Below are positions 17,101-46,463 of a stretch of DNA of 64,000 nt, in pieces (the stretch's first letter is position 1; each line of letters starts with the position of its first letter). The notes beneath the pieces were generated by a model. The model saw nothing but the letters and a program-made list of their open reading frames with translations, was not told the DNA's origin and searched no databases. The stretch comes from a virus (Duplodnaviria; Caudoviricetes). The DNA is taken from the IMG/VR virus record IMGVR_UViG_3300036945_000458, positions 1,143-65,142 of that record, one strand, 5' to 3'. Position numbers and translations under genes: made by a program.

Positions 17101-20100
17101 ATTCTATAGCAAGAACTTTACAAGCAGAGTTATTCAAAAGAGAACTATCTGAGAATGCAAAAGATACATTGAAGCGTGATGCAAATGGAGAATTTGTAAT
17201 TCCATTTGAAGCATCTCCTATGTATAAAAAAATCAAAGATGTTCTCTATTCTATGATTGAGAAATCATTGCTTTCTCCAAAGATGTCAGGTAGCTCTCAC
17301 GTACAAGCTCCTGTGACATTGTGGGAAAATGCTAAAAAGGGAAGAGAGTTAGTATTAGCTAGAAGAGATGATAAAGGAAAACTAATTTCCTACAGTAAAA
17401 TATCTAGAGAAGAGTTTGAGAAACTTTCTGAAGAAAAAAAGAAAGACGTTAAACTTACAAGTGGTGCTCTTAAGTTCTATGAAAATGAAGATGGAAAAAG
17501 ACACTGTGAAGTATTAATTCCTGCTTGGTTTAAAGATAAATTAAAAGGTAAATTCAAAAGCGATAAAGAGTTGATGACTTACCTAAACAATCATCCTGAT
17601 GGTAAAAAGATTTTATCAGGTATAGGGTTTCGTATTCCTACACAAGCTACCTCTTCTATAGATGTGTTTGTTGTTAAAGGATTCCTTCCAGCATACATGG
17701 GAACAACAGTTATTGTTCCTTCAGAGATTACAACTAAATCAGGATCTGACTTTGATATTGATAAATTGAACATGTACCTTAAGTCTATATACATAGATGC
17801 GAAAGGAGATATTCAATTAGTATCATACAAAGGATCTGAAGAAGCTACAAAAGAATTCTATAGCAAAGTTTACGATGATACAATCAAAGCAGAGATTGAG
17901 AAAATAAGAAAAAGTGACAACTATAGAGAAGACTTGTACAAGATATTAGATACATTAGAAACAAACAGTCTTCTAAGTAAAGAACAGAAGAAGTTCTATG
18001 ATACGCATGAGACAGTTATTAATGAAATAATTTCTCAAGCTGATGATCTTGATATGATTCCTTCAGAATACATACTCAAACAAATAACAAATCAAGCTCA
18101 GAAAGAAGTTAAGGCAACTGAGAAGTTATTAGATAGCACATTCAAAGAAAAGTTTGTAAACGACATGTACAAAAAATCTTTGGAGAATGAGCTGTATGAT
18201 TCTATGGAGAAGCTTCTAACATTACCACAAAACTTCTTACGACTTATTTCTCCTGTAACAGATGGAGGACTTTCTAAAGTTGCAGATGAGATGGATGCAC
18301 TTGTTGGTTATGATGAGTCAAAAATTAAAAACAGACTACTTAGTAGAACATACATGACTACTCTTAGACATCAATACTTGATTGCTAAGAAATGGGTAGG
18401 TATTGCTGCTACAAACATTACAGGAAACTCTAATGCACAGAAGAGCAAAGTGATCATAGACTTAGATAGAGTTTATAATAGACTAAACTACCAAGACCAA
18501 CAAGTATTGTATAATGATAAAATACTTCTTCCACATAACACTGTGGATGTGGATGGTAAGTCTTATGCAACTATATCAAAAATAAAAGTAGCTAATTCTG
18601 ATAAATACATTTCTGATAGACTTTCTGGATATGCTACATCTTTTGTGGATGTTGCAAACAATCCATTCATCATGAAGATTGTTAAATCTAATTTGATTGT
18701 AAGCACATTCATGTTCTTAGAAAGAATTGGTGCAGGAGAGCACACTATATTCTTCTTGAATCAACCAATCATTGCAGAGTATTTGAAGTATCTTGACAAT
18801 ATAGATTCTAAATCATTATTCAGTAGAGGTAATATAGATAACTTCACTACGTCATTTTTCATGGATAAAAATGTATCTAGTGAAATAAAACCTATACAAG
18901 GAAATGAATTCTATGATCTTGATAACTTGAAACAAAACATCAAGGATTATTATGCTACAGATGGTAAAAGCTTAACTCCTGAAAAGGCACGTGAACAAAA
19001 TTTAATCTTTGATGAGTTCTTGAAATATGCTAAGATGGCAGAGCACTTGTTTGACTTTAGTCAAGCTACTAACTACGATACAAGTAGATTTAGAAGTGGT
19101 GAATCATTTCGTAGAAAGAGACTAAGAACACAAATTGCAAGAGAGAAAAACATATTTACATCTGTTGATAATTTATTCAAATCAACTTTTCTTGGTAAAC
19201 AAAAAGACCTAGTTGAAAAGAGTATGCAAAGTATGGGAGCTATCTTCAAACTTGAAGAAGATAGATTCTCAATCATTACAGACTCTGTATTAAGACCTTT
19301 CCAAGAAAATAAATATTTAAGTAACGATGACTTTGACACTATTGCTAGCAAAGTGAAAGCATCTTTCTTAGACTATATAGTTCAAGTTAAATTAGGAATG
19401 AACACTCCTGCATTATTGACTGGTGAGAATTCTGTTGCTAGTCAATTATTAAAAGCAAGAGAGGCAAACAAAGATGTTAAGATATTACATGATCTTGAAC
19501 CAACCTTGTCAGATAGAATAGATGGTGCAAAAAGCATTAGACTAAGAGCTAATTTAAAAGAAGCTAGCGATGAGAATTTGTTTATTGAGATGATGAGAGA
19601 GTTGAAAGAAATCAACCCTACATTATTCAATAACATAATCAAAGTTGCAAGACTGCAAGGTTCATACCAATCAGCTATCTCGATAAACAATGTTATGCCT
19701 GTAGATGATTTTGCTGAAGATATTAAGGGCATCTTTAATACGTTGGTTGCTTCAGATGATATTAGAGCTTTTAAAAATGGCTGGTTCCAAAGAAACAATT
19801 GGAAAGATGACGCTATTTTCCCTGAATTAAAAAATACAAAATTTGCTTTTCCTGTAGATAATGCAGGAGCAATAGTTGATGAACCTATAGGAGAAGATCC
19901 ATATGGAAATTTAATTTATCAATATACGTCTAATTTGTTTCCATACATTCCAAGTTTAGGAGTGGATGCAAGTAACAGAGGAATTCTTTTACTACATAGT
20001 AAGTATGACACATTTAATGGAGCTAATGAAGACTATTTAAAAGTTCCTAGAGTTGTACAACTACCTGGAACAGAAGAACAAATTGACCTTACAACAGGAC

Positions 20101-30410: not shown

Positions 30411-33400
30411 ATGGGAATACCAAATAGACAAATAGGTTGGGACCAACAGTCAAACTTATTATGGCAACTTCAAGCACAGCTTAATAAATTAGGCAAAACA
30501 ATGAGTCAATGCTGTGGATCTTCTACAGCTGCAGGTTGTATTAGTTTTACTGATATAACTTGGGAAGCATTCATCACTGCTGTTAATGCAGGGACTATTG
30601 CAGATTGTTACTACAACATTACAAACAGACCTAACTCAGGTACAGATCCTTTATACGTCCTTGTTGAAAAAGGACTTCCTAATTTTGATAATGAGGTGAG
30701 AAGATCAGAGCAAGCAACAAGTGCTTTGTGTATTACAACTGATCAAGGAGTGGGATGTTTCAATGTATATGCTGAAGAAGAAACTATTTCTTTTGATTAT
30801 GTAGAAAATGCTGTAGTCTATCCTATTGGATTAAAAGACTGTTCTATTTTTGCTGAAGGTGACACTGTTACATTTACAAGTTTTCAAGCTCCTTTTCCTA
30901 CATATACAGGAGTTATACATTACACTTATAATGATCCTAAAAAAGGATGTGAAACATTTTTTCAAATAACAGGAGGAACAGGTCCTATACCACCAAGTCC
31001 TCTTAACCCTGATGGGAATTTTAGTAATGGTGTAGACAATACAAATGGAGTATTATTTGCAGCTGAAGCAGATAAAAATTGTGATCCTTTCCCAACACTA
31101 TCTGTAGGAGATTCAATTACGTCAAATACAATTAATGGTCTTATACAAGCAACAATAACAAGTATATCAGGAACAACAGTTACAATAGCTCCTACATCAG
31201 GAGATTGGACTGGTGTCACTGTATTTTATATAGGGGATAATCAATTTTGTTTATTTGTAACAACAGCTCCTATTACAACAACTAGTATACTTCTTACACC
31301 AGATCCTGTATGTTTTGATTTTAATAATCTTCTTGGACAAGGAGTTTATTTGAATACATTAATGCAAGCTACAGATGGTTTGATTTATGGCACATTAGCA
31401 CAAGTTAATAATTCTAGAGGACAACTTGCTCAGGGTCAATTATTCTCTATGGATCCTGTTACAGAACAAGTGACAATATTGTTTAACTTTGATGATTATA
31501 ATACATATGGTGGTTATCCTAATGCAGGAGTTGTTGAAATAGCAGGAGAATTATATGGTACATGTAATGGTGGTGGTAGTGGTGTAAATCCTGGTGGAAC
31601 TATATGGAAATGGAATATAGCAACAAACACGCTCACTGTATTACATACTATAGATGCTAATAGTCAAGAAGGATTATATCCTTATGGAACATTACTATAT
31701 ACAGGAGGAAAACTATATGGAACTTGTGAGAATGGAGGATTTAATGATGCTGGAACATTATTTGAATTTGATCCTATAGCTAATACATATACAGTTTTAA
31801 ATTGGTTTGCTAATAATGGAGATGTTGCTAATCCACAAGGACCATTAGTAGAAGTTATTCCTGGAGAGCTATGGGGAACTTCTTATGGAGGTGGAACTAA
31901 TAATCTTGGTACAGTGTTTAAATATACACTTAGTACAGGAAGTGAAGAGGTAGTTGTAAATCTTGATGACATTTCTGTATCAGGAGAATACATAGGTGCT
32001 AGTGGAGGAGTGATGTTGGCCAGTGATGGTAATGTTTATTTCAATACAAATTATGGTGGGGATAATGATAATGGAACATTGTGTCAAATTACAGACATCT
32101 CTACATCTCCATCACTTAATGTTGTATATAGCTTTGATGTAGATTATGGATATGGAGATGCTGTATGTCCTGTAGAAATAGCTGGTAATTTGTATGGATG
32201 TACAAATGATACAAATGGACCAATATTTATTGGTGAGTGTAATCCTCCATTGGGAAGTATTTATAAATATGATCTTAGTGTGGGTATATTTACAACATTA
32301 TATACATTTAATGCTCAAATTGATGGTGGTTCTCCATATTTAGGACAACTTCTTCCACTTGGAGATGTATTGTATGGAATGACAAATCAAGCACCAAGTG
32401 GTAAAGGATGTCCTATAGGTCAATTTGGACAAATATTCAAGTACAATCTTACAACAGAAACATATACAAACATTCAAGCTTTAGGAGCTCCTGTTTCTAC
32501 TCCTGCTGAGGTGGCAGAATCTATTTGTGCTAGCATTGTAGATCCTGGATATACATGTACTACAGTGGGTGGATGTCTTTTTGTTTCAGGAACACAGTTT
32601 GGAAACGAAGCAGGTCAAACATTAGTGGTTAGAACTATTGTTACGTTTATAGGTAATTTAGATGGATGTACAGCACCTACTGTTGGACAGCTTTTATATA
32701 ATGATATTACAGGTGATTTAATAGGAACTGTTATTAGTTTTGTTGATGATGATCCATTTACAATGGAAGTGGAATTAAATGATAATGCTAATCCTGGATA
32801 TACTAGTTTACCATTCGATGGTTACATAGAAGGAGTTGGATGTGTATTTCCAGTGCTGAGAGTAAATGGAACAATCCTTGACTACACTGTTCAACCTTTT
32901 GAAGGAGGAAAAGAACCTGTTAACAGACCTTGTTATTACAATGCTACATACGATGTAATCACAGACTATCCTCTTTCACAACCACATACAAAAGCAGAAA
33001 TAGACTATCTTGTAAATAACAACTTGTTAGTGCCAGGTGCGTTCTATCACATCATGGATGTGGATAAGTTCTTGTATGGAGGAACACAGATTGTAATTCA
33101 AGCAAATAGTCATCATGCATTTAATGATACAGCAATGGGCTTGTTCTACAATCCTAAATATGATCAATCTGTAGCAGGATTTGGAATATATAATAGTGAT
33201 ATAGAGTATTCTATTGGAGACACTGCTATATGGGGAGGACTTGTTATAACATATGCTGCAGGTGGTTCTATAGGTAATGCATCTCCATATAATCGAGAAT
33301 ATGGCCAATGGACATTCCCTGGTAAATTCAAAGTGTTTGTAGATGATGCTTCAGTTTTCACTGCAGGTGAAATTGTTTATGATCCTAATAATCCTAATAA

Positions 33401-34298
33401 CTCAATGCTTATTACAGAAGTGGGAGCTGATTACATTATTGTATCATGTCCTCCATTATTCTTAGCATTTGCTACATTTATTGTTAATGGTGTTGATTCA
33501 GCTGGTATTACATCTATAGAACTACACGAATCATTCTACAGCGATCTTATTTACAATGCTGTATGGGATGAAATAACATATGATTATGCACATGATTTCA
33601 TTAGTTCTAGAAAAGACAATGCTGGAAATGTTGTAGAACAATCTTGGAATAATTATAAATTATGGAATAAAGGAATTCCTACATGGAGAGCCATTGCAGG
33701 ATTCCAATGGGGTAACGAATATGCATATAATGTAGATCTTGATGATACTGTTGGAATGTATGGGAATAAAATAACTGAAAGTTATGTAGAAGTTATTAAT
33801 TTTACATTAAGTCTTTTTACAAATAACATTTTTGAAAGTTCTAGATTTTTAAATAATATATTTGACAGAAATGGAGGTTCAATTTTCTATAACATTTTTC
33901 AAAATGAGTCATATGTAGAAAATGTTGAATTTATTAACACTCCTGGTTTTAATAGAAATGTTTTCAATAGTTCTAATTTAATAGATTCTACAATTGATGG
34001 TAGTAATTTTTCAGATAATACATTAAACAATAGTGGCATTGAACAAATTCCTTCTGGTGGGACAACAAGTTTTGCAAATAATGCTGTGAAAGGTTCACAG
34101 CTAGATTTATCAACACAAACAGGAAACATAGAACGTACAAACTTTGATTATGTCATCTTAAATGATGACATATCTGCTGCTTCAAGAATCTATCAAACTA
34201 CATATGCTAAAGAAGTGGTATCAAGCAATGGTGCAGGAAACTTTATTAAATATGTAAGTGCTACAGGTACATACATAGTTGCTGCTGTAACAGTATAA
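30411..34298 (+). CDS. Putative tail fibre/receptor-binding protein with GloVer (TIGR03803-like) beta-propeller repeats and C-terminal beta-helix-like region
   Basis: 1295 aa, acidic, Cys-rich. Repeats LYGTCENGGFNDAGTLFEF, LWGTSYGGGTNNLGTVFKY etc. (about 31340-32470); NxF repeats near the C-terminus; N-terminal RQIGW..QSNL motif. Confidence 0.65.
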   Translation: MGIPNRQIGWDQQSNLLWQLQAQLNKLGKTMSQCCGSSTAAGCISFTDITWEAFITAVNAGTIADCYYNITNRPNSGTDPLYVLVEKGLPNFDNEVRRSEQATSALCITTDQGVGCFNVYAEEETISFDYVENAVVYPIGLKDCSIFAEGDTVTFTSFQAPFPTYTGVIHYTYNDPKKGCETFFQITGGTGPIPPSPLNPDGNFSNGVDNTNGVLFAAEADKNCDPFPTLSVGDSITSNTINGLIQATITSISGTTVTIAPTSGDWTGVTVFYIGDNQFCLFVTTAPITTTSILLTPDPVCFDFNNLLGQGVYLNTLMQATDGLIYGTLAQVNNSRGQLAQGQLFSMDPVTEQVTILFNFDDYNTYGGYPNAGVVEIAGELYGTCNGGGSGVNPGGTIWKWNIATNTLTVLHTIDANSQEGLYPYGTLLYTGGKLYGTCENGGFNDAGTLFEFDPIANTYTVLNWFANNGDVANPQGPLVEVIPGELWGTSYGGGTNNLGTVFKYTLSTGSEEVVVNLDDISVSGEYIGASGGVMLASDGNVYFNTNYGGDNDNGTLCQITDISTSPSLNVVYSFDVDYGYGDAVCPVEIAGNLYGCTNDTNGPIFIGECNPPLGSIYKYDLSVGIFTTLYTFNAQIDGGSPYLGQLLPLGDVLYGMTNQAPSGKGCPIGQFGQIFKYNLTTETYTNIQALGAPVSTPAEVAESICASIVDPGYTCTTVGGCLFVSGTQFGNEAGQTLVVRTIVTFIGNLDGCTAPTVGQLLYNDITGDLIGTVISFVDDDPFTMEVELNDNANPGYTSLPFDGYIEGVGCVFPVLRVNGTILDYTVQPFEGGKEPVNRPCYYNATYDVITDYPLSQPHTKAEIDYLVNNNLLVPGAFYHIMDVDKFLYGGTQIVIQANSHHAFNDTAMGLFYNPKYDQSVAGFGIYNSDIEYSIGDTAIWGGLVITYAAGGSIGNASPYNREYGQWTFPGKFKVFVDDASVFTAGEIVYDPNNPNNSMLITEVGADYIIVSCPPLFLAFATFIVNGVDSAGITSIELHESFYSDLIYNAVWDEITYDYAHDFISSRKDNAGNVVEQSWNNYKLWNKGIPTWRAIAGFQWGNEYAYNVDLDDTVGMYGNKITESYVEVINFTLSLFTNNIFESSRFLNNIFDRNGGSIFYNIFQNESYVENVEFINTPGFNRNVFNSSNLIDSTIDGSNFSDNTLNNSGIEQIPSGGTTSFANNAVKGSQLDLSTQTGNIERTNFDYVILNDDISAASRIYQTTYAKEVVSSNGAGNFIKYVSATGTYIVAAVTV

Positions 34299-34316: not shown

Positions 34317-34493
34317 ATGAAAAAGATTCAACGCACAACAGACAATAAATATCTTGTATCATTCTTTGAGGATGTATGGACAGATAACATTGAAGAAGCA
34401 AAAGTTTTTAATCGCTCTGGAGAATCTAGAGTTACAATTATGAAACTTTCAGCAAGACTTGGTCGTGATAAAATTAAAGAAATCGAACTATGA
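34317..34493 (+). CDS. Small hypothetical protein (58 aa), not in ORF track
   Basis: MKKIQRTTDNKYLVSFFEDVWTDNIEEAKVFNRSGESRVTIMKLSARLGRDKIKEIEL*; ATGA overlap with the LRR gene. Confidence 0.6.
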   Translation: MKKIQRTTDNKYLVSFFEDVWTDNIEEAKVFNRSGESRVTIMKLSARLGRDKIKEIEL

Positions 34494-36103
34494 TAAGTCG
34501 TGAAATAGGTTGGAGTAACCAAAACAATCTTACGTTTGGTATCATTCAACAAGTAAACAAAATACAGAAAGAGGTGTGTTGTAATTGTAATATTTCTACA
34601 ACTACAACCACCACCACTGTGTTTCGTAACTTTGATGTTACAGCAGATTGGAGTCTTTCTGTTCCTGCTGTTACAAGTCCTGCTACATTCAAGACATTCT
34701 TGGAAAGTGGACAAGATGGTGATGGGAATACTAATAGCTTAACAGGTGTTGTAATCACTGACTTCTTACTTGTAGGAAATAGATTGAGATGTAATGTTTC
34801 TTCTACTGGAGGATTTAATTTAGGATTTGCATTCATGGGTGTGACAGATGTTACATCATTTGGAAACCTACAAATGAACAATAGTTTAAATTTATATGGT
34901 AATAACATTTCATCTGTTGACAATACATCTTGGCCAATTGGTGTAACTAGTATTGATTTAGGTGATAATAGTATTACATCATTTGACAATGTTACATGGC
35001 CTAGTTCACTTGCTGGTTATTTAGGACTATATTCAAATGCTTTAACATCATTCAATCCTGTAACTCCTTTACCAAATACAATAACTGAACTAGATTTAAG
35101 TAACACTTTCATTACATCATTTGATGATGTTGTTTGGCCAAGTGATTTACAATATTTATACTTATATACCACTGCAATTACTTCTTTTGATCCATCTACA
35201 GCTCTTTCTAGTGGATTACAAACTTTAGATTTAGGTGGCAACGCATTAACAAACTTTGACCCTAGCATTGCTTTACCTAGTTCATTACAGTATTTGTATT
35301 TGTCTAGCACTAATTTAACATCATTTGATCCATCAATTGCTTTACCAAGTTCATTATTGGCTTTATATTTATATAATAATACTCTACTAACATCATTTGA
35401 TCCAAGTATAGCTCTTCCTAATTCATTACTAACTTTAGACTTAAGTGATAGTTCATTAACATCTTTCACTCCAAGTTTACCATTGCCTAGTTCATTACAA
35501 AATTTATATTTAGCAAATAACCAAATAGTTACATTTGATCCAGCATATGATTTACCTATTGGAGTAACACAGTTACAATTACAAAGCAATCAGATAGTAA
35601 ACTTCACTCCAAGTAATTCACTTGGAAGTGGATTGCAATATTTATATTTACAAAATAACCAAATAGTTAATTTTGATCCTGGCGTAGCATTACCAAGTTC
35701 ATTGATCCAAATATATTTAAACAGTAATCAAATAGTAAACTTCAATCCAAGTATTGCTTTACCAGTTACTGTATCAAATCTTGAAATTTATTTAGGTCAA
35801 AATCAAATAGTGAACTTTAATCCAACAATAGCATTACCAAGTGTATTGACAGGTTTATATTTAGATGGTAATCAGATAGTAACATTTAATCCTACTAATC
35901 CTTTACCAAATTCATTGATATATTTATCTCTGAATAACAATCAAATGACAACTGCTGGATACACAGGATCAGAACCATGGGCTAACGCTATGAGTGTAAT
36001 ACCTGGACGTGGTAATGTATATATTAGTGGTAATATAGATACTGTTTCAGCAACAAACTTGGAAACTATTTTAACAGCTAAAGGCTGGACTGTATATCCA
36101 TAA
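34490..36103 (+). CDS. Leucine-rich-repeat virion/surface protein with N-terminal IGW module and Thr7 linker
   Basis: Roughly 15 repeats of about 23-24 aa (LPSSLQYLYLSSTNLTSFDPSIA); N-terminus MISREIGWSNQNNL...VCCNCNISTTTTTTT. Confidence 0.85.
   Translation: MISREIGWSNQNNLTFGIIQQVNKIQKEVCCNCNISTTTTTTTVFRNFDVTADWSLSVPAVTSPATFKTFLESGQDGDGNTNSLTGVVITDFLLVGNRLRCNVSSTGGFNLGFAFMGVTDVTSFGNLQMNNSLNLYGNNISSVDNTSWPIGVTSIDLGDNSITSFDNVTWPSSLAGYLGLYSNALTSFNPVTPLPNTITELDLSNTFITSFDDVVWPSDLQYLYLYTTAITSFDPSTALSSGLQTLDLGGNALTNFDPSIALPSSLQYLYLSSTNLTSFDPSIALPSSLLALYLYNNTLLTSFDPSIALPNSLLTLDLSDSSLTSFTPSLPLPSSLQNLYLANNQIVTFDPAYDLPIGVTQLQLQSNQIVNFTPSNSLGSGLQYLYLQNNQIVNFDPGVALPSSLIQIYLNSNQIVNFNPSIALPVTVSNLEIYLGQNQIVNFNPTIALPSVLTGLYLDGNQIVTFNPTNPLPNSLIYLSLNNNQMTTAGYTGSEPWANAMSVIPGRGNVYISGNIDTVSATNLETILTAKGWTVYP
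34870..35950 (+). repeat. Degenerate tandem coding repeats (about 69-72 nt) of the LRR array
   Basis: Recurrent acatcatttga(t/c) and aa(c/t)ca(a/g)atagt units at LRR periodicity. Confidence 0.75.
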
Positions 36104-36155
36104 CACCAAAACATAATAAACACACAACAATAAATTATAATAAACCAACTACATT

Positions 36156-37172
36156 ATGAAAGATTTGAAATTTATCTGCGCACAACCAGATGACACTTAC
36201 TACACATGGCAAGTACACCTTTGGTTAGAAAGCTTAAGAGAAATAGGACATTCAGATAAAGCCATCGTGCTTATTTTTATTCCTAGTTATAGAGAACAAA
36301 ATAAGAAGTGGGACCAAATTATAAGTCTATATCCAGAAGCTGAATTCAACTTCTACAAAGATGTAGATAACGTAAGTCAATTATTAGGAATATACATTCC
36401 TGTTCTTCGTCCTTACGTTCTTTGGAAATACTTTAAAGAGCATCCTGAAATGAGCGATAAAGCAGTCTTTTATTGTGATTCTGATATTCTCTTTACACAG
36501 GAATTCAGTCTTGATAAGTTCTTAGAGGATGATGTGTGTTATCTTTCAGATACAAACAGTTACATTAGTGCTAAGTATTTTGACAGTAAGATTAATCAGG
36601 TGTTACCTGAGAAACTAGAAGAATACAAAACAAGAGATATTCTTGGTGAGATAGCAAGTGTTATTGGTATATCAAGAGAAATTGCAGAAGCAAACAATGA
36701 TCATTCAGGAGGAGCACAATACTTCTTAAAGAATGTAGATGCTAACTTCTGGAGTAAAGTGATGAATGATTGTATTCTCATAAGAACCTATTTACAAAAA
36801 GTGAATAGAGAATTCTTTAAAGATGAGAATGCAGGGTATCAAAGTTGGTGCGCAGATATGTGGGCTGTTCTTTGGAACCTATGGTTGAGAAACCAAGAAA
36901 CTAAAGTGGTTGAGGAACTTGCATTTGCATGGAGCCCAGACCCAATTAAAAAACTAGAGACACATACAATCCTACATAATGCAGGAATCATTGGAACATC
37001 ACAAGATGGTTATGCATGTTTCTATAAAGGGAAATATCATACAGGACAAGATCCTATGTTAGATCCACATTTAGATGTAGTGTTGAATGATGAGAAATCA
37101 AAAACAAGATGCACATGGTATTATGCCAGTAAATTGAATTTATTAAAACATAAATATAAACTTAAATACTAA
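36156..37172 (+). CDS. GT-A fold glycosyltransferase resembling protein O-glycosyltransferases (GT95 HPAT / GT96 SERGT-like)
   Basis: DxD motif FYCDSDILF (DSD at 36477-36485); N-terminal Y-x-x-WQ (DTYYTWQ), RPY, GGAQY, WCADMWA; motif order matches what I recall of HPAT/SERGT. Confidence 0.6.
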   Translation: MKDLKFICAQPDDTYYTWQVHLWLESLREIGHSDKAIVLIFIPSYREQNKKWDQIISLYPEAEFNFYKDVDNVSQLLGIYIPVLRPYVLWKYFKEHPEMSDKAVFYCDSDILFTQEFSLDKFLEDDVCYLSDTNSYISAKYFDSKINQVLPEKLEEYKTRDILGEIASVIGISREIAEANNDHSGGAQYFLKNVDANFWSKVMNDCILIRTYLQKVNREFFKDENAGYQSWCADMWAVLWNLWLRNQETKVVEELAFAWSPDPIKKLETHTILHNAGIIGTSQDGYACFYKGKYHTGQDPMLDPHLDVVLNDEKSKTRCTWYYASKLNLLKHKYKLKY

Positions 37173-37177
37173 AAATT

Positions 37178-37384
37178 ATGACACCAAACAAACGTGACTT
37201 AAAAGCGTATGCTCGCTTTGATGGAACTGGACGTATCGTCCCAGGAAGCTTAGTGCTTAGACGTAATGAGCCTAAAGTAGGAAATTGGCAGGAAATTCAA
37301 GCATATGAATGCTGTAATCCAACTACCACAACAACAACAACTGTAGCTCCTACAACGACTACAACAACAACTGCACTAGTATAA
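37178..37384 (+). CDS. Poly-Thr-tailed small protein, paralog A (68 aa)
   Basis: LKAYARFDGTGRIVPGSLVLRRNEPKVGNWQEIQAYECCNP-T7-VAP-T7-ALV. Confidence 0.8.
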   Translation: MTPNKRDLKAYARFDGTGRIVPGSLVLRRNEPKVGNWQEIQAYECCNPTTTTTTTVAPTTTTTTTALV

Positions 37385-37560
37385 TGGCAACAAACAATAG
37401 ACCTCTGAAAGCATATGTAAGATTTGATGGATCTGGCAGAGTTGTTGCTGGAAGCTTAATTCTTAGAAAGCAAAAGCCTAAAGTGGGTAAATGGCAGGAG
37501 ATTCCTGCTTATGAGTGTTGTAACCCAACAACTACTACTACAACCACTGCTCCAGTATAA
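37384..37560 (+). CDS. Poly-Thr-tailed small protein, paralog B (58 aa), not in ORF track
   Basis: MATNNRPLKAYVRFDGSGRVVAGSLILRKQKPKVGKWQEIPAYECCNP-T7-APV*; TAATG-coupled on both sides; clear paralog of 37178. Confidence 0.8.
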   Translation: MATNNRPLKAYVRFDGSGRVVAGSLILRKQKPKVGKWQEIPAYECCNPTTTTTTTAPV

Positions 37561-37784
37561 TGAAACTTCCATTAATTCCTTTAGATAAGGCAAACCATAT
37601 TATATATGGACTTGTAATATACATCATAGCCAATTTGTTTGTTGAAAACATCTTGGCTTTTGGTGCAGTTGTATTATTTGGTGCAGGAAAAGAGTTGTAC
37701 GATTACAAAAGTTATGGTAAATTTGATGTGTTAGATTTACTAGCAACTGTTTCTGCAGCATTACTATTAACAATTTTATATTAA
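37560..37784 (+). CDS. Small membrane protein (VanZ/YfiM-like DKxxH...KExxD...DxxDLxA pattern)
   Basis: DKANHIIYG, GAGKELYDY, FDVLDLLAT plus hydrophobic helices. Confidence 0.55.
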   Translation: MKLPLIPLDKANHIIYGLVIYIIANLFVENILAFGAVVLFGAGKELYDYKSYGKFDVLDLLATVSAALLLTILY

Positions 37785-37794
37785 AACAAACACA

Positions 37795-38208
37795 ATGGCA
37801 TTAAAATCTTTATTTCCTGAAGACATGATGAAATCATCAGGAGCAGAAATGACACTAGAAAGTGTAGCTGCAAAACTTACATATTTCCATGAGCAATTAC
37901 ATTTGTTGCACTGGCAAACTACAAGTTATGCAGAGCATCAAGCTCTTGGATCATTGTACGATTATGTACATGATTTCAAAGATGGTGTAGTTGAGAAACT
38001 CATGGGCTATATGGGAAAAAGACCTTCTGTATATAAGATTGATCCTCTTACAAATTGTACAGCTATGTCTTGTGTAGAATCTCTTTGCAACTTTGCATCA
38101 GAATTAAAAATGTATGGAGAGAGAAACTCATTCCACGACATTTGCAATCTAGCAGATTCTCTATCAGGAGAAGCAGCAAAAACTAAATTCCTACTAACAT
38201 TGTCATAA
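37795..38208 (+). CDS. Ferritin/Dps-like four-helix protein (DUF5856-like)
   Basis: HLLHWQTTSYAEHQALGSLYD...DGVVE motif resembling the Dps ferroxidase segment. Confidence 0.7.
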   Translation: MALKSLFPEDMMKSSGAEMTLESVAAKLTYFHEQLHLLHWQTTSYAEHQALGSLYDYVHDFKDGVVEKLMGYMGKRPSVYKIDPLTNCTAMSCVESLCNFASELKMYGERNSFHDICNLADSLSGEAAKTKFLLTLS

Positions 38209-38500: not shown

Positions 38501-39463
38501 ATGGCAACATTCATTAAAGCAGGTTTCTGGGAACAACTTTGTGTTCCATGTAAGGGATACAAAGGCTGGCTAAACCTTGATGAACTCATTAAGAAGTTAG
38601 CTAGTACAGTGGTTGGCCCACAAGGTCCTCAAGGAATCCAAGGAGTTCAAGGCCCACAGGGTGTTGAAGGTCCACAAGGAATTCAGGGAGAAACAGGTGC
38701 TGCTTTAACAGTGTTAGGTTCTTATCCTGACCTTCCTTCATTTTTAGCTGGTGCTGGTGGATCTCCTGGTACTCCAGGTACAGCATGGATTATAGAATCA
38801 GATGGTTCTTTATATGTATGGAACACAGCTACTACTGCTTGGGAAGATGTTGGTGACCTTCAGGGTCCACAAGGTATACAAGGAATACAGGGGCCTCAAG
38901 GAGAACAAGGTATTCAGGGGATACAAGGTATCCAAGGACCTGCTGCTCCTTCTACTAGTTTGTTTGCTCAAACAGCAAACTCAACTCCTGTAACAGGAAC
39001 TATTGTAGAAACAACATTAATAGGTGCAGGTGTAGGAACTTTATCTGTTCCTGCTAATGGATTTCAAGTGGGAGATAGCTTTAGAGCTGTCTTTGGTGGT
39101 GTTATGAATGCTGCAAATAATCAAACTATTAGAATTAAATTAAAAGCAGGAGCTGTTATTCTTCTAGATAGTGGTGCACAAGATCTTGGAAGTGCTGTTA
39201 TAGATGATGTATGGAGTCTAAATGTTGATTTTACAATTAGACAAGTTGGAGCTGCTACTGTAGCTTCTATTGTATCATTAGGGTCTTTTCATTACACAAA
39301 AACTAATAATGCTTCTGTTCAAGGATTTGGTTTTAATGTTTTAAACAATACAACATTTAACACAACAATTAGTAACACATTAAATGTAACTGTACAATGG
39401 GGAAGTACTAATGCTGGTAATTCTATATACAGTGATATTTTCATATTAAACAAAACGTACTAA
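38501..39463 (+). CDS. Collagen-like (Gly-X-Y) fibre protein
   Basis: Two G-X-Y tracts (GPQGPQGIQGVQG..., GPQGIQGIQGPQGEQG...) around a DGSLYVW knob; beta-rich C-terminal domain. Confidence 0.8.
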   Translation: MATFIKAGFWEQLCVPCKGYKGWLNLDELIKKLASTVVGPQGPQGIQGVQGPQGVEGPQGIQGETGAALTVLGSYPDLPSFLAGAGGSPGTPGTAWIIESDGSLYVWNTATTAWEDVGDLQGPQGIQGIQGPQGEQGIQGIQGIQGPAAPSTSLFAQTANSTPVTGTIVETTLIGAGVGTLSVPANGFQVGDSFRAVFGGVMNAANNQTIRIKLKAGAVILLDSGAQDLGSAVIDDVWSLNVDFTIRQVGAATVASIVSLGSFHYTKTNNASVQGFGFNVLNNTTFNTTISNTLNVTVQWGSTNAGNSIYSDIFILNKTY

Positions 39464-41811: not shown

Positions 41812-41843
41812 AAAAGCCCCAATCAAGGGGCTTTTTTATTTTT
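41812..41843. terminator. Bidirectional rho-independent terminator where the two genome arms converge
   Basis: AAAAGCCCC-AATCAA-GGGGCTTTT followed by more T; A-tract on one side and T-tract on the other. Confidence 0.85.
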
Positions 41844-42351
41844 TTATTCCCCAAAAGTAGAGATCTGTATCTCCTCGTTCAAGAGTTAATGATGATGATT
41901 CAAACATTTCCTCTGGAAGAACAGATCTAAAATCTTCTTTAGATATATTTCGATAGTGCTCTAATGTAAACTTACTATCTTGAGGAGTATGATTATTAGT
42001 ACCATGTTCTTGTCTATTAGGACCAGCACATGTTAATATAAATAATCCTTTTGGTTTTGTATTTTTATACATTTGTAAAAGAGCTTCATCCCATTCTTTA
42101 CAGTGTTCTAACATCTCTGATGATATTACAACATCATATTCATTCTCTCTAGAAAAGTCAACAATTGATATAACCATGTCAACTCCTGGAGCTTTTCCAA
42201 GATCAATACCAAGATAATCACAGTTTTGAAAATGTTTTCTAACTGAACCATTAATATCTTGACTACCTACTTCTAATACAGATTTTGTATTAAATAAATC
42301 AGGAAAAAGTTTTTTTACTTTAATTACAAAGTGATCTATTTCTGGATGCAT
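41836..42351 (-). CDS. Class I SAM-dependent methyltransferase (type often found with glycosyltransferases)
   Basis: VLEVGSQDING (motif I), YLGIDL, YDVVISSEMLEH, KPKGLFIL. Confidence 0.8.
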   Translation of the reverse strand: MHPEIDHFVIKVKKLFPDLFNTKSVLEVGSQDINGSVRKHFQNCDYLGIDLGKAPGVDMVISIVDFSRENEYDVVISSEMLEHCKEWDEALLQMYKNTKPKGLFILTCAGPNRQEHGTNNHTPQDSKFTLEHYRNISKEDFRSVLPEEMFESSSLTLERGDTDLYFWGIKK

Positions 42352-42352
42352 A

Positions 42353-43099
42353 TTATTTATTTATAAATTCAGTTAGCATTTTACTATAATCTTTCTTCCA
42401 ATTAGGATTTAGATTAACTTCTCCTGTAGGAATCTTACCTTGTATTCTCAAGTTTTCTATGTGGAGACTGTGTCTTTGTATTACATTAGGTTTACCAGCC
42501 ACATCGTGACCTTGTCCACTCATGTGATAACCACGTCCACCCCACATATAGAACCAACTAGCATCTTCTTCAGGCATCTCAACAAAGAGTCTTCCTCCAT
42601 GTTTGTGTAGTCTTTCAATGAATGTCATGTCATATCCTGCATTCTCTATTGGATGTCCTCCAATAGCTTCCCATGCAGACTTTCTAAAAACAATTCCTGA
42701 ATTCCCAAGCCAACAAATATCTGTAATCTTTGGTTCATTATAAAGAACACCAGTTTTCCAGTGCATAATGTTCACATCATCTGTAAAATGTTTGTATACA
42801 TTATCTACATGATTAGGTAGTGCAACATCATCATCGTCCCATTGACAGATGATTTCTCCTTTACACAACTTTGTAGCGTAATTCTCTTTATCACCAATTG
42901 TACTGAATGTTTCATCAAGATTTACAATTGTGACTTCAGGATGATCAAAGAATAACTTCTGAAGAGGGTAGTCATTAACTATGATTAGTTCCTTTGGACC
43001 TTTGTAGTTTTGATGGAGGAAACTATATAAAGATTCCTCCAACATGTCTACCCTTCCATAGGTGATCATCTTACATGATATTAATGGAAGCTCTGTCAT
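42353..43099 (-). CDS. Glycosyltransferase family 2 (GT-A)
   Basis: ISCKMITYGR, ELIIVND, CQWDDDD (DxD), AIGG...GYD. Confidence 0.85.
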   Translation of the reverse strand: MTELPLISCKMITYGRVDMLEESLYSFLHQNYKGPKELIIVNDYPLQKLFFDHPEVTIVNLDETFSTIGDKENYATKLCKGEIICQWDDDDVALPNHVDNVYKHFTDDVNIMHWKTGVLYNEPKITDICWLGNSGIVFRKSAWEAIGGHPIENAGYDMTFIERLHKHGGRLFVEMPEEDASWFYMWGGRGYHMSGQGHDVAGKPNVIQRHSLHIENLRIQGKIPTGEVNLNPNWKKDYSKMLTEFINK

Positions 43100-43694: not shown

Positions 43695-44345
43695 TTATTT
43701 TCCATATATATAATCTAGTATTTTACCTACTAATCCACTTCTGTGGTTAGCTTGTAATTTAATCCATTGTATTCCATCAATGTTTTTAGAAAGCTCTATA
43801 GCAAAATCTAAACCTGTATAAGATTCATTTGTATCTCTTTGAGAAGAGTCACCATTAATAACTATTTTACCTGTTGTACCAAGTCTAGTTAGAATAGCTT
43901 CCATTTCTCCTTTAGTTAAGTTTTGAGCTTCTTCTACAACAAGGATATCATCTATAGTTTTACCTCTAATAAATTGTATAGGAAGAGCTTGTATTTTTCC
44001 ATTCTTTACAAGTTCATCTACTTTAAGTTTATCTGTACATTTATAAAGATTTTCAAGTAGTGCTTCCATATATGGATTAAACTTTTCTTTAAGATCTCCA
44101 GGAAGAAACCCTAATGACTTACCTACTTCAATAGCACTTCTAGCAACTAACACTTTTTCACATTGTTTAGTATTTAAAAAATCTAACGCTGTAATAGCCC
44201 CAACTAATGATTTACCACTTCCAGCTCTACCTGTAATTATAACAATTTGATTATCAATAATCAACTGCTTTGCAGCTTTCTGTTCCTCGTTAAGGGTGAT
44301 GTTGTATTTTATATCACTCTTTCTAGTCCTGTTTGGTTCCTTCAT
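43695..44345 (-). CDS. phoH: PhoH-like ATPase
   Basis: GRAGSGKS, LGFLPGDLKEKF, FIRGKT, EEAQN, LTRLG, GDSSQRD, HRSGLV. Confidence 0.92.
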   Translation of the reverse strand: MKEPNRTRKSDIKYNITLNEEQKAAKQLIIDNQIVIITGRAGSGKSLVGAITALDFLNTKQCEKVLVARSAIEVGKSLGFLPGDLKEKFNPYMEALLENLYKCTDKLKVDELVKNGKIQALPIQFIRGKTIDDILVVEEAQNLTKGEMEAILTRLGTTGKIVINGDSSQRDTNESYTGLDFAIELSKNIDGIQWIKLQANHRSGLVGKILDYIYGK

Positions 44346-45416: not shown

Positions 45417-46463
45417 TTATAAATTAAAATTTTCTTCTTCTTCCACCACTTCTATTTCCTCTACAGGAATGTCTGTCTGTTGTATTTTATCAACGATCTT
45501 CTGTCTTAGTTCATCATAAAACTCTGGGTTGTTAAGGATTAACTGTTTGAATTCATCAAGATCATATTTGACAAAATCAAGAGTGAATGTCTTACCATAC
45601 TTACGTCCTATCTCAAACTCATTAAGAAGTTCCATCATCTCTGTAAGCTTGTCAATACCTTTACCATACACAATCTCAAACTGAGATAATCTATATGGAG
45701 GAGACATCTTGTTCTTGATACCTCTAAGCTTAGTGATATTACCATAAGTTACATCACCATCTTTTGCCAAGGTTCTACTCACTTCTATTCTTGCATCGCT
45801 ATAGAACTTAAGTGCATGTCCACCCTGAGTTGTAGTAGGGTTACCAAACATAACACCAATCTTCTCTCTATATTGGGATATTACGATAACACATACATTG
45901 TGTTCTGATAGAGCAGACTTTAGTTTTGGATAGGCATTACTGTTTAGTAAAGCTTTCTTACCAATAGAGCTGTCACCCACTTCACCATCTAACACCTTCT
46001 TAGGAATCAATGATGAATCTGAATCTATGATTACAAGATCAATGTCTCCAGTGTTAATCATTTCCATTGCAATGTTGAATCCCTCTTCGCCACATGATGG
46101 TTGAGCAATCAACATCTTAGTTGTATCCACTCCTAATGATTGGAAGTATTTCTTGTCAACAGCATGCTCACCATCTATGTATAGAACAGTGCCACCTTTC
46201 TTTTGACATTCTGCAGTTACATGACCACAGATTGTAGATTTACCTGTACCCTCCCAGCCCATGAGCTCGTACATCTTACCTTTTACAAATCCTCCTACAC
46301 CTAAAGTGATCCAATCAAAACCAATACTACCTGTACTGATTACATCATAATTTCCTTCAGACTTAGAGTCTAATGCTAATATGGTTCCTACACCATATTG
46401 TTTGTTTAATTTGTCAAGAGCTGCTTCTATGCCCCCTTTTTCTTCAGCTTTTTTCTTTGCCAT
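45417..46463 (-). CDS. recA: RecA-family recombinase
   Basis: ISTGSIGFD, GWEGTGKST, YIDGEHA, IIDS, SQYREKIGVMFGNPTTTQGGHALKFYS, KNKMSPP. Confidence 0.95.
   Translation of the reverse strand: MAKKKAEEKGGIEAALDKLNKQYGVGTILALDSKSEGNYDVISTGSIGFDWITLGVGGFVKGKMYELMGWEGTGKSTICGHVTAECQKKGGTVLYIDGEHAVDKKYFQSLGVDTTKMLIAQPSCGEEGFNIAMEMINTGDIDLVIIDSDSSLIPKKVLDGEVGDSSIGKKALLNSNAYPKLKSALSEHNVCVIVISQYREKIGVMFGNPTTTQGGHALKFYSDARIEVSRTLAKDGDVTYGNITKLRGIKNKMSPPYRLSQFEIVYGKGIDKLTEMMELLNEFEIGRKYGKTFTLDFVKYDLDEFKQLILNNPEFYDELRQKIVDKIQQTDIPVEEIEVVEEEENFNL

What the first reader, a model, noticed from the sequence alone, without database searches (positions are those of the whole stretch)
34490..37784. Candidate phage protein O-glycosylation system: GT95/GT96-like transferase followed by tandem Cys-Cys/Thr7 mucin-like peptides
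Seen: a DxD glycosyltransferase (36156-37172) is followed within 5 nt by two translationally coupled paralogous peptides (37178-37384 and 37384-37560; the second is missing from the ORF track). They share LKAYxRFDGxGRxVxGSLxLRxxxPKVGxWQEIxAYECCNP and end in runs of exactly seven Thr (two runs in A, one in B). The LRR protein immediately upstream has CCNCNIS-T7. All four runs use mixed ACN codons, which argues for protein-level selection rather than slippage. Known: the enzyme's motifs (YxxWQ, RPY, DSD, GGAQY, WCADMWA) line up, from memory, with plant Hyp O-arabinosyltransferases (GT95) and peptidyl-serine galactosyltransferases (GT96), which glycosylate hydroxy-amino-acid runs. Inference: the phage puts mucin-like O-glycans on Thr7 tags of virion-surface proteins anchored through the Cys-Cys motif (glycan shield or adhesion). 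Alternative: the peptides are RiPP-like precursors with a conserved leader and Thr core.
Basis: partly seen in the sequence, partly recalled or inferred. Interest (0 to 1): 0.92.

Follow-up and report, generated by a model that had tools for sequence, protein, structure and literature searches.

The report
Phage poly-threonine sugar-tagging enzyme and carriers
An uncultured crAss-like freshwater phage encodes an unnamed sugar-transferring enzyme surrounded by small proteins that carry runs of exactly seven threonines, and because this enzyme family and such threonine runs appear and vanish together in many unrelated phages, the phage probably sugar-coats parts of its own particle, although no sugar has been measured.

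Summary
A 338-aa protein (36156-37172) is followed after 5 nt by two TAATG-coupled paralogues of 68 and 58 aa. Each ends in T7 runs, and the LRR protein upstream carries CC...T7.

The 338-aa protein folds with very high confidence (pLDDT 97.6) as a DxD GT-A glycosyltransferase. Its closest solved folds are retaining GT8 enzymes (Z about 14). It hits PHROG 4417 (unknown function) and no Pfam family.

The main evidence is comparative:
- **Cultured phages:** in 9 of 9 homologue loci examined, the gene lies beside structural proteins bearing poly-Thr tracts, usually C-terminal tails.
- **Capsid-relative sets:** in three sets (181 loci), 63 have both enzyme and poly-Thr and 115 have neither. Three have poly-Thr only and none has the enzyme only.

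The "peptides" are a conserved 45-aa module followed by a Thr stalk. Elsewhere the same module carries fibre-like domains, so they are not RiPP precursors.

Membership of GT95/GT96 is not supported; there is only a faint lead. A GT2 and a methyltransferase in the window occur fused to this enzyme family in one metagenomic protein.

No biochemical evidence exists. This scan reached the same reading earlier on many other phage genomes. My literature searches found no published description.

The parts
36156..37172 (+). 338-aa soluble GT-A glycosyltransferase with a retaining GT8-like fold. Its DxD motif is D108-S-D110. It belongs to an unnamed family (PHROG 4417).
   Evidence: phrog_4417 E 1.7e-57 and no Pfam hit. 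AF2 pLDDT 97.6. VIA Z 14.1 to glycogenin 1zcu and Skp1 alpha-GalT 6mw8, and Z 13.8 to LgtC. Foldseek best hits are GT6 and GT8 enzymes at E about 1e-6. D108, D110 and H274 are invariant in 91 sequences.
37178..37384 (+). Stub protein A, 68 aa. It has a 45-aa beta-sheet module ending in YECC, then NP-T7-VAP-T7-ALV.
   Evidence: 263 short homologues were found; the 120 listed all have the same build. AF2 model has three strands at residues 9-40 and a disordered tail.
37384..37560 (+). Stub protein B, 58 aa. It is a paralogue of A with a single T7 unit, and its start overlaps the stop of A (TAATG).
34490..36103 (+). LRR fibre-like protein, 537 aa. It has a second type of N-terminal module (REIGW...NL...CC), followed by T7 at 34598-34618 and then the LRR body.
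   Evidence: Pfam LRR_4 and LRR_8. T7 run. In related loci the same module type occurs as 44-48-aa stubs ending in T7-T10, immediately upstream of the enzyme gene.
42353..43099 (-). GT2-family glycosyltransferase, a candidate glycan-extending enzyme.
   Evidence: Pfam Glycos_transf_2 E 4e-9. 33% identical (E 2e-9) to the N-terminal domain of fusion protein P0436. Homologues occur in 18 of 22 near-complete relatives.
41836..42351 (-). Class I SAM methyltransferase, a candidate glycan-capping enzyme. It is a variable accessory gene.
   Evidence: Pfam Methyltransf_23 E 2.3e-9. 48% identical (E 5e-55) to the middle domain of fusion protein P0436. Present in only 1 of 22 near-complete relatives.
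37560..37784 (+). 74-aa hydrophobic ORF, coupled by a TAATG overlap to stub B. Its role is unknown and it may not belong to the system.
   Evidence: The only family hit is a weak PHROG match at E 0.047.
30411..34298 (+). 1295-aa fibre-like protein sharing the REIGW-type N-terminal module and a CC motif, but without a Thr run. Listed as context.
   Evidence: Translation. No Pfam or PHROG family.

Best explanation
The 338-aa protein is a cytoplasmic, metal-dependent (DxD) GT-A glycosyltransferase. Late in infection it most likely transfers a sugar from a host nucleotide-sugar onto the hydroxyl groups of poly-threonine tracts in the phage's own proteins.

In this crAss-like phage the probable acceptors are:
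- the two stub proteins, each a 45-aa beta-sheet module ending in YECC followed by one or two T7 units spaced by xAP;
- the T7 linker behind the N-terminal module of the LRR fibre protein.

The GT2 enzyme at 42353-43099 probably extends the glycan, and in this phage the methyltransferase at 41836-42351 probably caps it. The products would be stiff, hydrophilic, mucin-like stalks. The conserved modules would plug these stalks into the particle, where they could act as a shield or an adhesin.

Shown here: the fold, the invariant DxD, the gene linkage, the co-variation of enzyme and poly-Thr across phages, and purifying selection on the module and on the run length.

Inferred: sugar transfer to Thr, the donor sugar, the virion location of the stubs, and the biological role.
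For: 1. **Enzyme.** AF2 pLDDT is 97.6. The fold is GT-A, closest to retaining GT8 enzymes that act on proteins or glycans: glycogenin and Skp1 alpha-GalT at Z 14.1, LgtC at 13.8, the serine-rich-repeat glycosyltransferase GlyE at 12.7, and the PBCV-1 capsid glycosyltransferase at 11.2. D108 and D110 are invariant. Other family members are fused to GT2, GT6, Gly_transf_sug and methyltransferase domains.

2. **Local linkage.** In all 68 related loci that had 1.5 kb on both sides, an ORF with a run of five or more Thr lies within 1.5 kb of the enzyme gene. It lies upstream in 62 of 74 loci and downstream in 66 of 74.

3. **Independent lineages.** In 9 of 9 cultured-phage loci examined, the homologue (23-36% identity) lies beside structural genes. 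It lies directly behind the major tail or head gene in most. The major tail, major head, portal, protease or small decoration-like proteins nearby carry poly-Thr tracts, mostly at their C-termini. The nine are Chryseobacterium MA9V-3, Enterococcus phiFL1A and VPE25, Lactobacillus iLp84 and Semele, Lactococcus 1706 and bIL285, Clostridium phiCTP1 and Arcanobacterium TPWB06.

4. **Contrasts among capsid relatives**:
   - bIL285 set: 15 loci with enzyme and poly-Thr, 62 with neither.
   - phiFL1A set: 12 with both, 18 with neither.
   - iLp84 set: 36 with both, 35 with neither, 3 with poly-Thr only.
   - No locus in any set has the enzyme without poly-Thr.
   - Capsids 98-99% identical to iLp84's differ in both traits together.

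5. **Reverse test.** A DNA pattern for nine Thr codons returned 118 viral loci, of which 99 carry an in-frame run of eight or more Thr. In 9 of those 99 the enzyme gene abuts the 3' end of the poly-Thr ORF. This was so in 0 of the 19 loci where the pattern is not a Thr run.

6. **Selection on the tag.** Run lengths peak sharply at exactly 7 (116 of 201 runs of three or more). Codons are mixed: ACA 443, ACT 379, ACC 207, ACG 13.

7. **Fusion link.** One metagenomic protein, P0436, joins a GT2 domain (33% identical to the window GT2), a methyltransferase (48% identical to the window's) and this enzyme family.
Against: - No sugar has been measured on any of these proteins. Every link between enzyme and Thr tract is correlative.
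- The GT8-like fold also serves lipopolysaccharide and other non-protein acceptors.
- Poly-Thr tracts often occur without this enzyme. Only 7 of 52 whole viral records with runs of eight or more Thr carry it.
- Of the 120 longer homologues of the stub module that were listed, 83 have no Thr/Ser run behind CC. The module itself is therefore not the sequon.
- Two loci (L362, L364) keep a poly-Thr tail on the tail protein without the enzyme.
- The methyltransferase is present in only 1 of 22 near-complete relatives.
- Within each contrast set, the enzyme-positive loci are close kin. The independent events are about a dozen, not 63.
- The enzyme gene abuts the tail-coding end of its neighbour, so one recombination could move both. 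Against that, tails on genes 2-3 kb away co-vary as well.
Confidence: 0.72

Rival explanations
1. The poly-Thr tracts are plain flexible linkers or tails that stay unmodified. The glycosyltransferase acts on something else, such as a host envelope glycan (teichoic acid, LPS or capsule) or phage DNA.
For: GT8-like folds include LPS enzymes such as LgtC and WbbM. VPE25 DNA is reported as glycosylated, but the authors assign that to a T4 beta-glucosyltransferase homologue and a second ORF (passages of PMC4999554). Most viral records with poly-Thr runs lack this enzyme: 45 of 52.
Against: Enzyme and poly-Thr co-vary almost perfectly in three sets of capsid relatives: 63 with both, 115 with neither, 3 with poly-Thr only and 0 with the enzyme only. 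The gene sits inside head-tail modules directly behind the tagged protein in both temperate and lytic phages. An envelope- or DNA-directed enzyme gives no reason for Thr tails on several structural proteins to come and go with it.
Confidence: 0.13
2. The 58- and 68-aa products are RiPP or glycocin-like precursors. A conserved leader would guide the enzyme to a Thr (or Cys) core, and the mature glycopeptide would be released rather than built into the particle.
For: They are small and tandemly duplicated, lie next to a glycosyltransferase, and carry paired Cys. An earlier scan note (e1-5970800) says the family also occurs in peptide-antibiotic clusters, which I did not test.
Against: The same module is fused to folded fibre-like domains in 301 longer homologues. 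Of the 120 listed, 13 carry Peptidase_S74 and 1 carries LRR. No protease, transporter or other RiPP enzyme lies nearby. In cultured phages the tagged proteins are major capsid and tail proteins.
Confidence: 0.04
3. The stubs are decaying remnants of longer fibre genes, truncated after the linker, and have no function of their own.
For: Longer forms with C-terminal domains exist at the same position in relatives.
Against: 263 short forms were found. All 120 listed keep the module, the CC and the Thr units. pN/pS is 0.23 on the module, and the run length is held at seven despite synonymous turnover. Forms carrying an S74 chaperone domain would yield the same module-plus-stalk product if they self-cleave as that domain is known to do. 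That step rests on recalled knowledge of the family and was not tested here.
Confidence: 0.06

Closest known systems
Virion glycosylation of mycobacteriophages (Che8, Corndog, Myrna; Freeman et al. 2023, Cell Host Microbe). The paper itself is not held; I saw it only through passages in citing papers.
   Same: Phage-encoded glycosyltransferases modify the phage's own capsid and tail-tube proteins, as the citing passages state.
   Different: The enzyme family differs: the profile of this family gives no hit to Che8 gp108-110. Che8 has no run of five or more Thr in the three forward reading frames, where its annotated structural and glycosyltransferase genes lie. Its transferase genes lie at the right genome end, not inside the structural module. 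In this window the acceptors are dedicated stub and fibre proteins rather than capsid or tail-tube tails.
Retaining GT8 glycosyltransferases: glycogenin, Skp1 alpha-galactosyltransferase, LgtC, and GlyE of serine-rich-repeat adhesins
   Same: Closest solved folds, at Z 12.7-14.1 with 208-237 residues aligned. All are DxD metal-dependent GT-A enzymes. Several act on proteins or protein-linked glycans.
   Different: There is no sequence-level membership: no Pfam Glyco_transf_8 hit at E up to 1, and 8-14% identity in the structural alignments. Foldseek TM-scores are only 0.42-0.48.
Plant and algal hydroxyproline O-arabinosyltransferases (GT95, Pfam HPAT PF23452) and peptidyl-serine galactosyltransferase (GT96)
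   Same: These enzymes put the first sugar on runs of hydroxy-amino acids. There are faint sequence leads: 1 of 91 family members hits HPAT at E 1.3e-4, and in one neighbouring ESM Atlas cluster 10% of members carry HPAT.
   Different: The window protein and 9 of 9 cultured-phage homologues do not match the HPAT model. The plant enzymes are Golgi membrane proteins acting on Hyp or Ser (recalled). This one is soluble, and its tracts are Thr.
Chlorovirus PBCV-1 capsid glycosylation (A64R and partners)
   Same: A virus-encoded cytoplasmic GT-A enzyme acts on a structural protein; 2p6w matches at Z 11.2. That the chlorovirus enzymes combine transferase and methyltransferase domains, much like P0436, is recalled and not checked here.
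   Different: It is a eukaryotic giant virus with a different enzyme family and no poly-Thr sequon (recalled).
Mucin-type O-glycosylation of Thr/Pro-rich tandem repeats in animals
   Same: Short Thr-rich repeats spaced by Pro-containing triplets (T7-xAP, period 10) as dense O-glycan carriers. This is an analogy only.
   Different: It uses unrelated GT27 enzymes in the Golgi (recalled). No homology was tested or claimed.

Membership tests
GT-A fold, DxD-dependent glycosyltransferases | Single Rossmann-like alpha/beta/alpha GT-A domain | tested here: met
   AF2 pLDDT 97.6. 284 PDB matches at Foldseek E of 0.001 or better; the ~45 rows shown are all glycosyltransferases. VIA Z up to 14.1 over residues 1-337.
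GT-A fold, DxD-dependent glycosyltransferases | Conserved DxD metal and nucleotide-sugar binding motif | tested here: met
   D108 and D110 (DSD) are invariant in 91 sequences at 29-47% identity. That invariant H274 is the third metal ligand is my inference; it was not checked in a superposition.
CAZy GT8 (retaining) | Sequence membership (Pfam Glyco_transf_8) | tested here: not met
   No Pfam family at E up to 1 for the window protein. None of the 91 representatives hit Glyco_transf_8 at E up to 0.01. The resemblance is in fold only.
CAZy GT95 (HPAT, Pfam PF23452) | Match to the family profile above its cut-off | tested here: not met
   No match in the window protein or its record. 0 of 9 cultured-phage homologues match at E up to 1. 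1 of 91 representatives matches at E 1.3e-4. One ESM Atlas neighbour cluster has HPAT on 10% of its members. A distant relationship is not excluded.
CAZy GT96 (peptidyl-serine alpha-galactosyltransferase) | Sequence or fold similarity to SGT1-type enzymes | not testable with these tools
No profile, sequence or solved structure of this family was available from any tool.
Phage virion protein glycosylation (Che8 type) | Phage-encoded glycosyltransferase together with modified capsid or tail proteins | not testable with these tools
   Modification needs mass spectrometry. Gene-level linkage of the enzyme with tagged structural proteins is met.
Phage virion protein glycosylation (Che8 type) | Homology to the Che8 glycosyltransferases gp108-110 | tested here: not met
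   hmmsearch with the family profile against gp108, gp109 and gp110 gave no significant score; the best was gp108 at -1.3 bits.
RiPP or glycocin precursor peptides | Short precursor with a leader, plus dedicated maturation and export genes | tested here: not met
   The module is fused to folded domains in 301 longer homologues. No protease, transporter or RiPP enzyme is among the neighbouring genes.

The most novel reading that the evidence does not exclude
One unnamed GT-A family defines a mucin-like O-glycosylation code that spans many phage groups. Runs of threonine would be portable sequons, here held at exactly seven and spaced by xAP. They would be written onto capsid, tail-tube, portal and fibre proteins, and read by a single enzyme that moves between phages of Bacteroidota, Bacillota and Actinomycetota. 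crAss-like phages would add dedicated 45-aa plug-in modules that mount glycosylated bottle-brush fibrils on the particle. The enzyme would be a distant viral relative of the plant extensin glycosyltransferases.
Probability: 0.3. Interest if true: 0.9.

Novelty: new variant of a known kind. Interest (0 to 1): 0.76.

Why it matters
As far as the citing passages I read go, glycosylation of phage particles has been shown experimentally only for mycobacteriophages.

If this reading holds, a different and so far unnamed enzyme family (PHROG 4417, 768 clusters at 50% identity) sugar-coats virions in many settings:
- dairy and gut Firmicutes phages, including candidates for phage therapy such as the Enterococcus VPE25 group;
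- Herelleviridae;
- an Actinomycetota phage;
- abundant freshwater crAss-like phages.

That would bear on phage antigenicity and clearance, adsorption to mucus or polysaccharide, and particle stability. It would also help explain anomalous gel masses of phage structural proteins.

The poly-Thr tag with its single cognate enzyme would also be a compact, portable system for glyco-engineering phage surfaces.

The claim is directly testable with cultured phages and standard mass spectrometry.

Tried and rejected
- **Nucleotide and peptide search in cultured phages:** a megablast of the region and a tblastn of the stub peptide both found nothing.
- **Sequence search of PDB:** neither the enzyme alone nor its profile gave a meaningful hit.
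- **NCBIfam:** nothing meaningful.
- **HPAT and DUF7164 models** searched against the window's own record: no match, and the control genomes did not ring either, so this is uninformative on its own.
- **Fold of the stub module:**
  - BFVD returned only its own family (Virus NIOZ-UU157 protein).
  - The wide PDB search returned a single weak row, the cyanophage Pam3 fibre N-terminus at Z 2.1, 41 residues, rmsd 2.5. That is a lead at most.
  - The ESM Atlas gave only unnamed viral clusters below 0.8.
- **Complex prediction** on three copies of the module (residues 1-48): no answer, score 0.03 against a mark of 0.42. This counts neither for nor against trimer formation.
- **RNA evidence:**
  - Logan contigs from four metatranscriptome runs of four studies lie on parts of the enzyme gene, the stubs and the 74-aa ORF at 85-99% likeness. 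One piece bridges the enzyme-stub A junction.
  - These libraries can contain DNA and the contigs come from relatives, so this is only a hint of transcription.
  - A 72-nt contig that joins the T7 run of the LRR gene to that of stub A is most simply a repeat-driven assembly artefact.
- **Promoter and terminator scan:** no more sites than in shuffles for promoters (28 found against a mean of 25.6), and no convincing terminator in the operon.
- **phiEf11:** a paper reports its tail protein running 6.5 kDa heavy (passages of PMC5221750). phiEf11 shows no gene of this family among the annotated features of its first 20 kb, which hold the structural genes. It also has no run of five or more Thr in the three forward frames there. 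That anomaly is therefore not evidence here.
- **DNA-glycosylation idea for VPE25-like phages:** the published DNA modification is assigned to other genes (passages of PMC4999554).
- **Literature:**
  - Searches found no paper linking poly-Thr tails to a phage glycosyltransferase.
  - Subscription journals and supplements are not covered.
  - Freeman et al. 2023 was not held, so its acceptor sites and any wider survey in its supplements could bear on novelty.
- **Methyltransferase as a general partner:** rejected, since it is present in only 1 of 22 near-complete relatives.

Full report
**What is in the sequence**

The window is part of a 65-kb IMG/VR virus record estimated at 57% complete, with 33.5% G+C. 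It encodes a 4484-aa ORF and other giant late proteins.

Close relatives are contigs of 95-117 kb, several with terminal repeats. The stretch is held mostly by runs labelled freshwater.

- an LRR protein (34490-36103) whose N-terminus reads ...CCNCNIS-T7;
- a 338-aa protein (36156-37172);
- 5 nt later, a 68-aa protein with two T7 runs;
- overlapping it by TAATG, a 58-aa paralogue with one T7 run;
- overlapping that by TAATG, a 74-aa hydrophobic ORF.

The four T7 runs are the only runs of seven or more Thr in six frames of 64 kb, and they use mixed codons. Chance predicts 1.4e-4 such runs, and 0 of 200 shuffles gave one.

**The enzyme**

The protein matches no Pfam or NCBIfam family. Its only family match is PHROG 4417, of unknown function.

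A full HMMER scan found 768 clusters at E of 0.001 or better. Some family members are fused to GT2, GT6, Gly_transf_sug or methyltransferase domains.

With 90 of these representatives as an alignment, D108 and D110 of the DSD motif are invariant, as is H274. AlphaFold gives pLDDT 97.6.

Foldseek's best PDB matches are GT6 alpha-1,3-galactosyltransferase and GT8 glycogenin, at E about 1e-6 and TM 0.42-0.48.

The Foldseek-independent search puts GT8-type retaining enzymes on top:

| Solved structure | Z |
|---|---|
| Glycogenin | 14.1 |
| Skp1 alpha-galactosyltransferase | 14.1 |
| LgtC | 13.8 |
| UGGT catalytic domain | 13.8 |
| LARGE1 | 12.7 |
| GlyE (serine-rich-repeat adhesin glycosyltransferase) | 12.7 |
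| PBCV-1 capsid glycosyltransferase | 11.2 |

It is therefore a soluble DxD GT-A glycosyltransferase with a GT8-like fold. By sequence it is not a member of GT8.

**The "peptides"**

The 68-aa protein has 263 short homologues. All 120 listed have the same build: about 45 residues ending in Y-E-C-C-N-P, then one to four units of T7 (sometimes with one Ser) spaced by xAP.

It also has 301 longer homologues. In these the same module is followed, with or without a Thr stalk, by unrelated domains. Of the 120 listed, 13 carry the tail-fibre intramolecular chaperone Peptidase_S74 and one carries LRR. Many others carry small Cys-rich or beta-rich domains. 83 of the 120 have no Thr/Ser run behind CC.

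Across the window and 80 related loci I found 113 copies of the 39-aa core. They align without gaps, and pN/pS is 0.23 at pS 0.71.

Thr-run lengths peak at exactly seven: 116 of 201 runs of three or more. Codons are mixed. This points to selection at the protein level rather than slippage.

The module is predicted as a three-stranded sheet with a disordered tail, at pLDDT 75. It has no recognisable solved relative.

I read the family as a conserved plug-in module that carries interchangeable distal parts. The two window genes are its minimal form: module plus stalk.

A second module type (REIGW...NL...C/CC) heads the LRR protein and the 1295-aa protein upstream. In relatives it occurs as 44-48-aa stubs ending in T7-T10, directly upstream of the enzyme gene.

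In all 68 related loci with 1.5 kb on both sides, a poly-Thr ORF lies within 1.5 kb of the enzyme gene.

**The decisive evidence comes from elsewhere**

tblastn finds the enzyme family in 77 cultured-phage records, at 23-36% identity.

I examined nine loci from different groups. In most, the gene lies inside the head-tail module directly behind the major tail or major head gene. In MA9V-3 every neighbouring gene is annotated hypothetical, and in Semele it follows a small protein annotated as major tail protein. In every one, nearby proteins carry poly-Thr tracts, mostly as C-terminal tails:
- phiFL1A: head and tail proteins;
- iLp84: head protein, tail protein and a small protein with five Thr runs;
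- Lactococcus 1706: tail protein and protease;
- VPE25: tail protein;
- phiCTP1: portal, small head protein and tube;
- Arcanobacterium TPWB06: protease, tail protein and a small protein;
- Semele: two small proteins;
- bIL285: tail protein;
- Chryseobacterium MA9V-3: two proteins with internal Thr/Ser tracts.

To control for relatedness, I fetched viral contigs encoding relatives of three of these capsid proteins. I scored each locus for the enzyme (family HMM, E of 1e-5 or better) and for any run of five or more Thr on the coding strand.

| Capsid-relative set | Loci | Enzyme + poly-Thr | Neither | Poly-Thr only | Enzyme only |
|---|---|---|---|---|---|
| bIL285 | 77 | 15 | 62 | 0 | 0 |
| phiFL1A | 30 | 12 | 18 | 0 | 0 |
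| iLp84 | 74 | 36 | 35 | 3 | 0 |

Of the three poly-Thr-only loci, one contig ends right after the capsid gene. The other two keep a tail on the tail protein only.

Capsids 98-99% identical to iLp84's (L322-L333) lack both traits. phiFL1A relatives at 89% identity have both, while those at 88% have neither.

The enzyme-positive loci within a set are close kin. The number of independent events is therefore roughly the number of lineages, about a dozen, and not 63.

**Reverse test**

Of these, 99 carry an in-frame run of eight or more Thr.

In 9 of the 99 the enzyme gene is in the locus, each time abutting the 3' end of the poly-Thr ORF. None of the 19 loci where the pattern is not a Thr run has it.

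Searching whole records gave the enzyme in 7 of 52 records with Thr runs and in 0 of 8 controls. 20 of the 80 loci given were not held and so not searched.

Most viral poly-Thr tracts therefore do not travel with this enzyme. When the enzyme is present, however, a poly-Thr protein is next to it.

**A wider pathway**

The window also encodes a GT2 (42353-43099, minus strand) and a class I methyltransferase (41836-42351, minus strand).

One metagenomic protein, P0436 (782 aa), joins three domains:
- a GT2 domain 33% identical to the window GT2;
- a methyltransferase 48% identical to the window's;
- a domain of this enzyme family.

That argues for one pathway. GT2 homologues occur in 18 of 22 near-complete relatives, but the methyltransferase occurs in only 1 of 22. 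Tailoring therefore varies between phages.

**Comparison with what is known**

The closest described system is virion glycosylation in mycobacteriophages. I could read about it only in citing papers, because the paper itself is not held.

Che8 differs from the present system in three ways:
- its three glycosyltransferases are not detected by this family's profile;
- it has no Thr run in its three forward frames;
- its transferase genes lie at the genome end.

HPAT (PF23452) does not match the window protein or nine cultured-phage homologues. It matches 1 of 91 representatives at E 1.3e-4. It is carried by 10% of one neighbouring ESM Atlas cluster. GT96 could not be tested.

Seven literature searches found no description of poly-Thr tags paired with a phage glycosyltransferase.

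This scan has reached the same reading before on many other genomes, both Firmicutes phages and crAss-like relatives. My tests were run independently of those notes, and they agree.

**Verdict**

The best explanation is a phage-encoded O-glycosylation system of a new enzyme family. Its sequons are poly-Thr tracts on the phage's own, probably virion-exposed, proteins (confidence 0.72).

Still inferred rather than shown:
- that the stubs sit on the particle;
- what the paired Cys do;
- which sugar is used;
- what the coat is for.

It is a new variant of a known kind: phage self-glycosylation, but with a different enzyme, sequon and gene arrangement. It is readily testable in cultured dairy and enterococcal phages.

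Noticed in passing
window 8124-21578 (+): A single 4484-aa ORF, followed by an 1814-aa ORF. An earlier scan note reads it as a crAss-like virion RNA polymerase polyprotein. I did not analyse it.
   Followed up: no
window 30411-30530 and 34490-34600; L012:9835-9972, L025:9240-9377, L009:9836-9973: A second N-terminal module (R/K-Q/E-IGW...NL(L)W...C/CC) heads two unrelated fibre-like proteins in the window. In relatives it occurs as 44-48-aa stubs ending in T7-T10, directly upstream of the glycosyltransferase gene.
   Followed up: partly
related loci L004-L083, downstream of the enzyme gene: The slot behind the enzyme gene is a hypervariable cassette site. It holds one to three genes with the YECC module, whose distal parts range from nothing to 438 aa (S74 chaperone, LRR, Cys-rich domains).
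   Followed up: partly
window 37322-37372 and homologues: Thr runs are held at exactly seven (116 of 201 runs of three or more) and spaced by xAP, giving a 10-residue period. Why seven is unexplained.
   Followed up: partly
L362 and L364, at about 12756: Two iLp84-like loci keep a T7 tail on the major tail protein, although the enzyme gene and the capsid tail are absent. This could be recent loss or a mosaic junction.
   Followed up: no
window 38501-39463 (+): 320-aa protein with collagen-like G-x-y repeats (Pfam Collagen E 1.5e-8) and a CVPC motif near its N-terminus. It is probably another fibre.
   Followed up: no
window 37795-38208 (+): 137-aa DUF5856 protein. The PHROG label is 'starvation-inducible transcriptional regulator', which looks Dps/ferritin-like. 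It lies just after the stub operon.
   Followed up: no
window 34617 joined to 37320, in RNA run X22: A 72-nt metatranscriptome contig (depth 43) joins the T7 run of the LRR gene to the T7 run of stub A. It is most likely an assembly artefact across ACN repeats, or it derives from a relative with a different gene order.
   Followed up: no
window 43695-44345 (-) and 45417-46463 (-): PhoH-like ATPase and a RecA homologue on the opposite arm.
   Followed up: no
window 55-2391 (+): 778-aa protein combining LysM and an N-acetylmuramoyl-L-alanine amidase domain. It lies among the giant late proteins and may be a virion-associated lysin.
   Followed up: no
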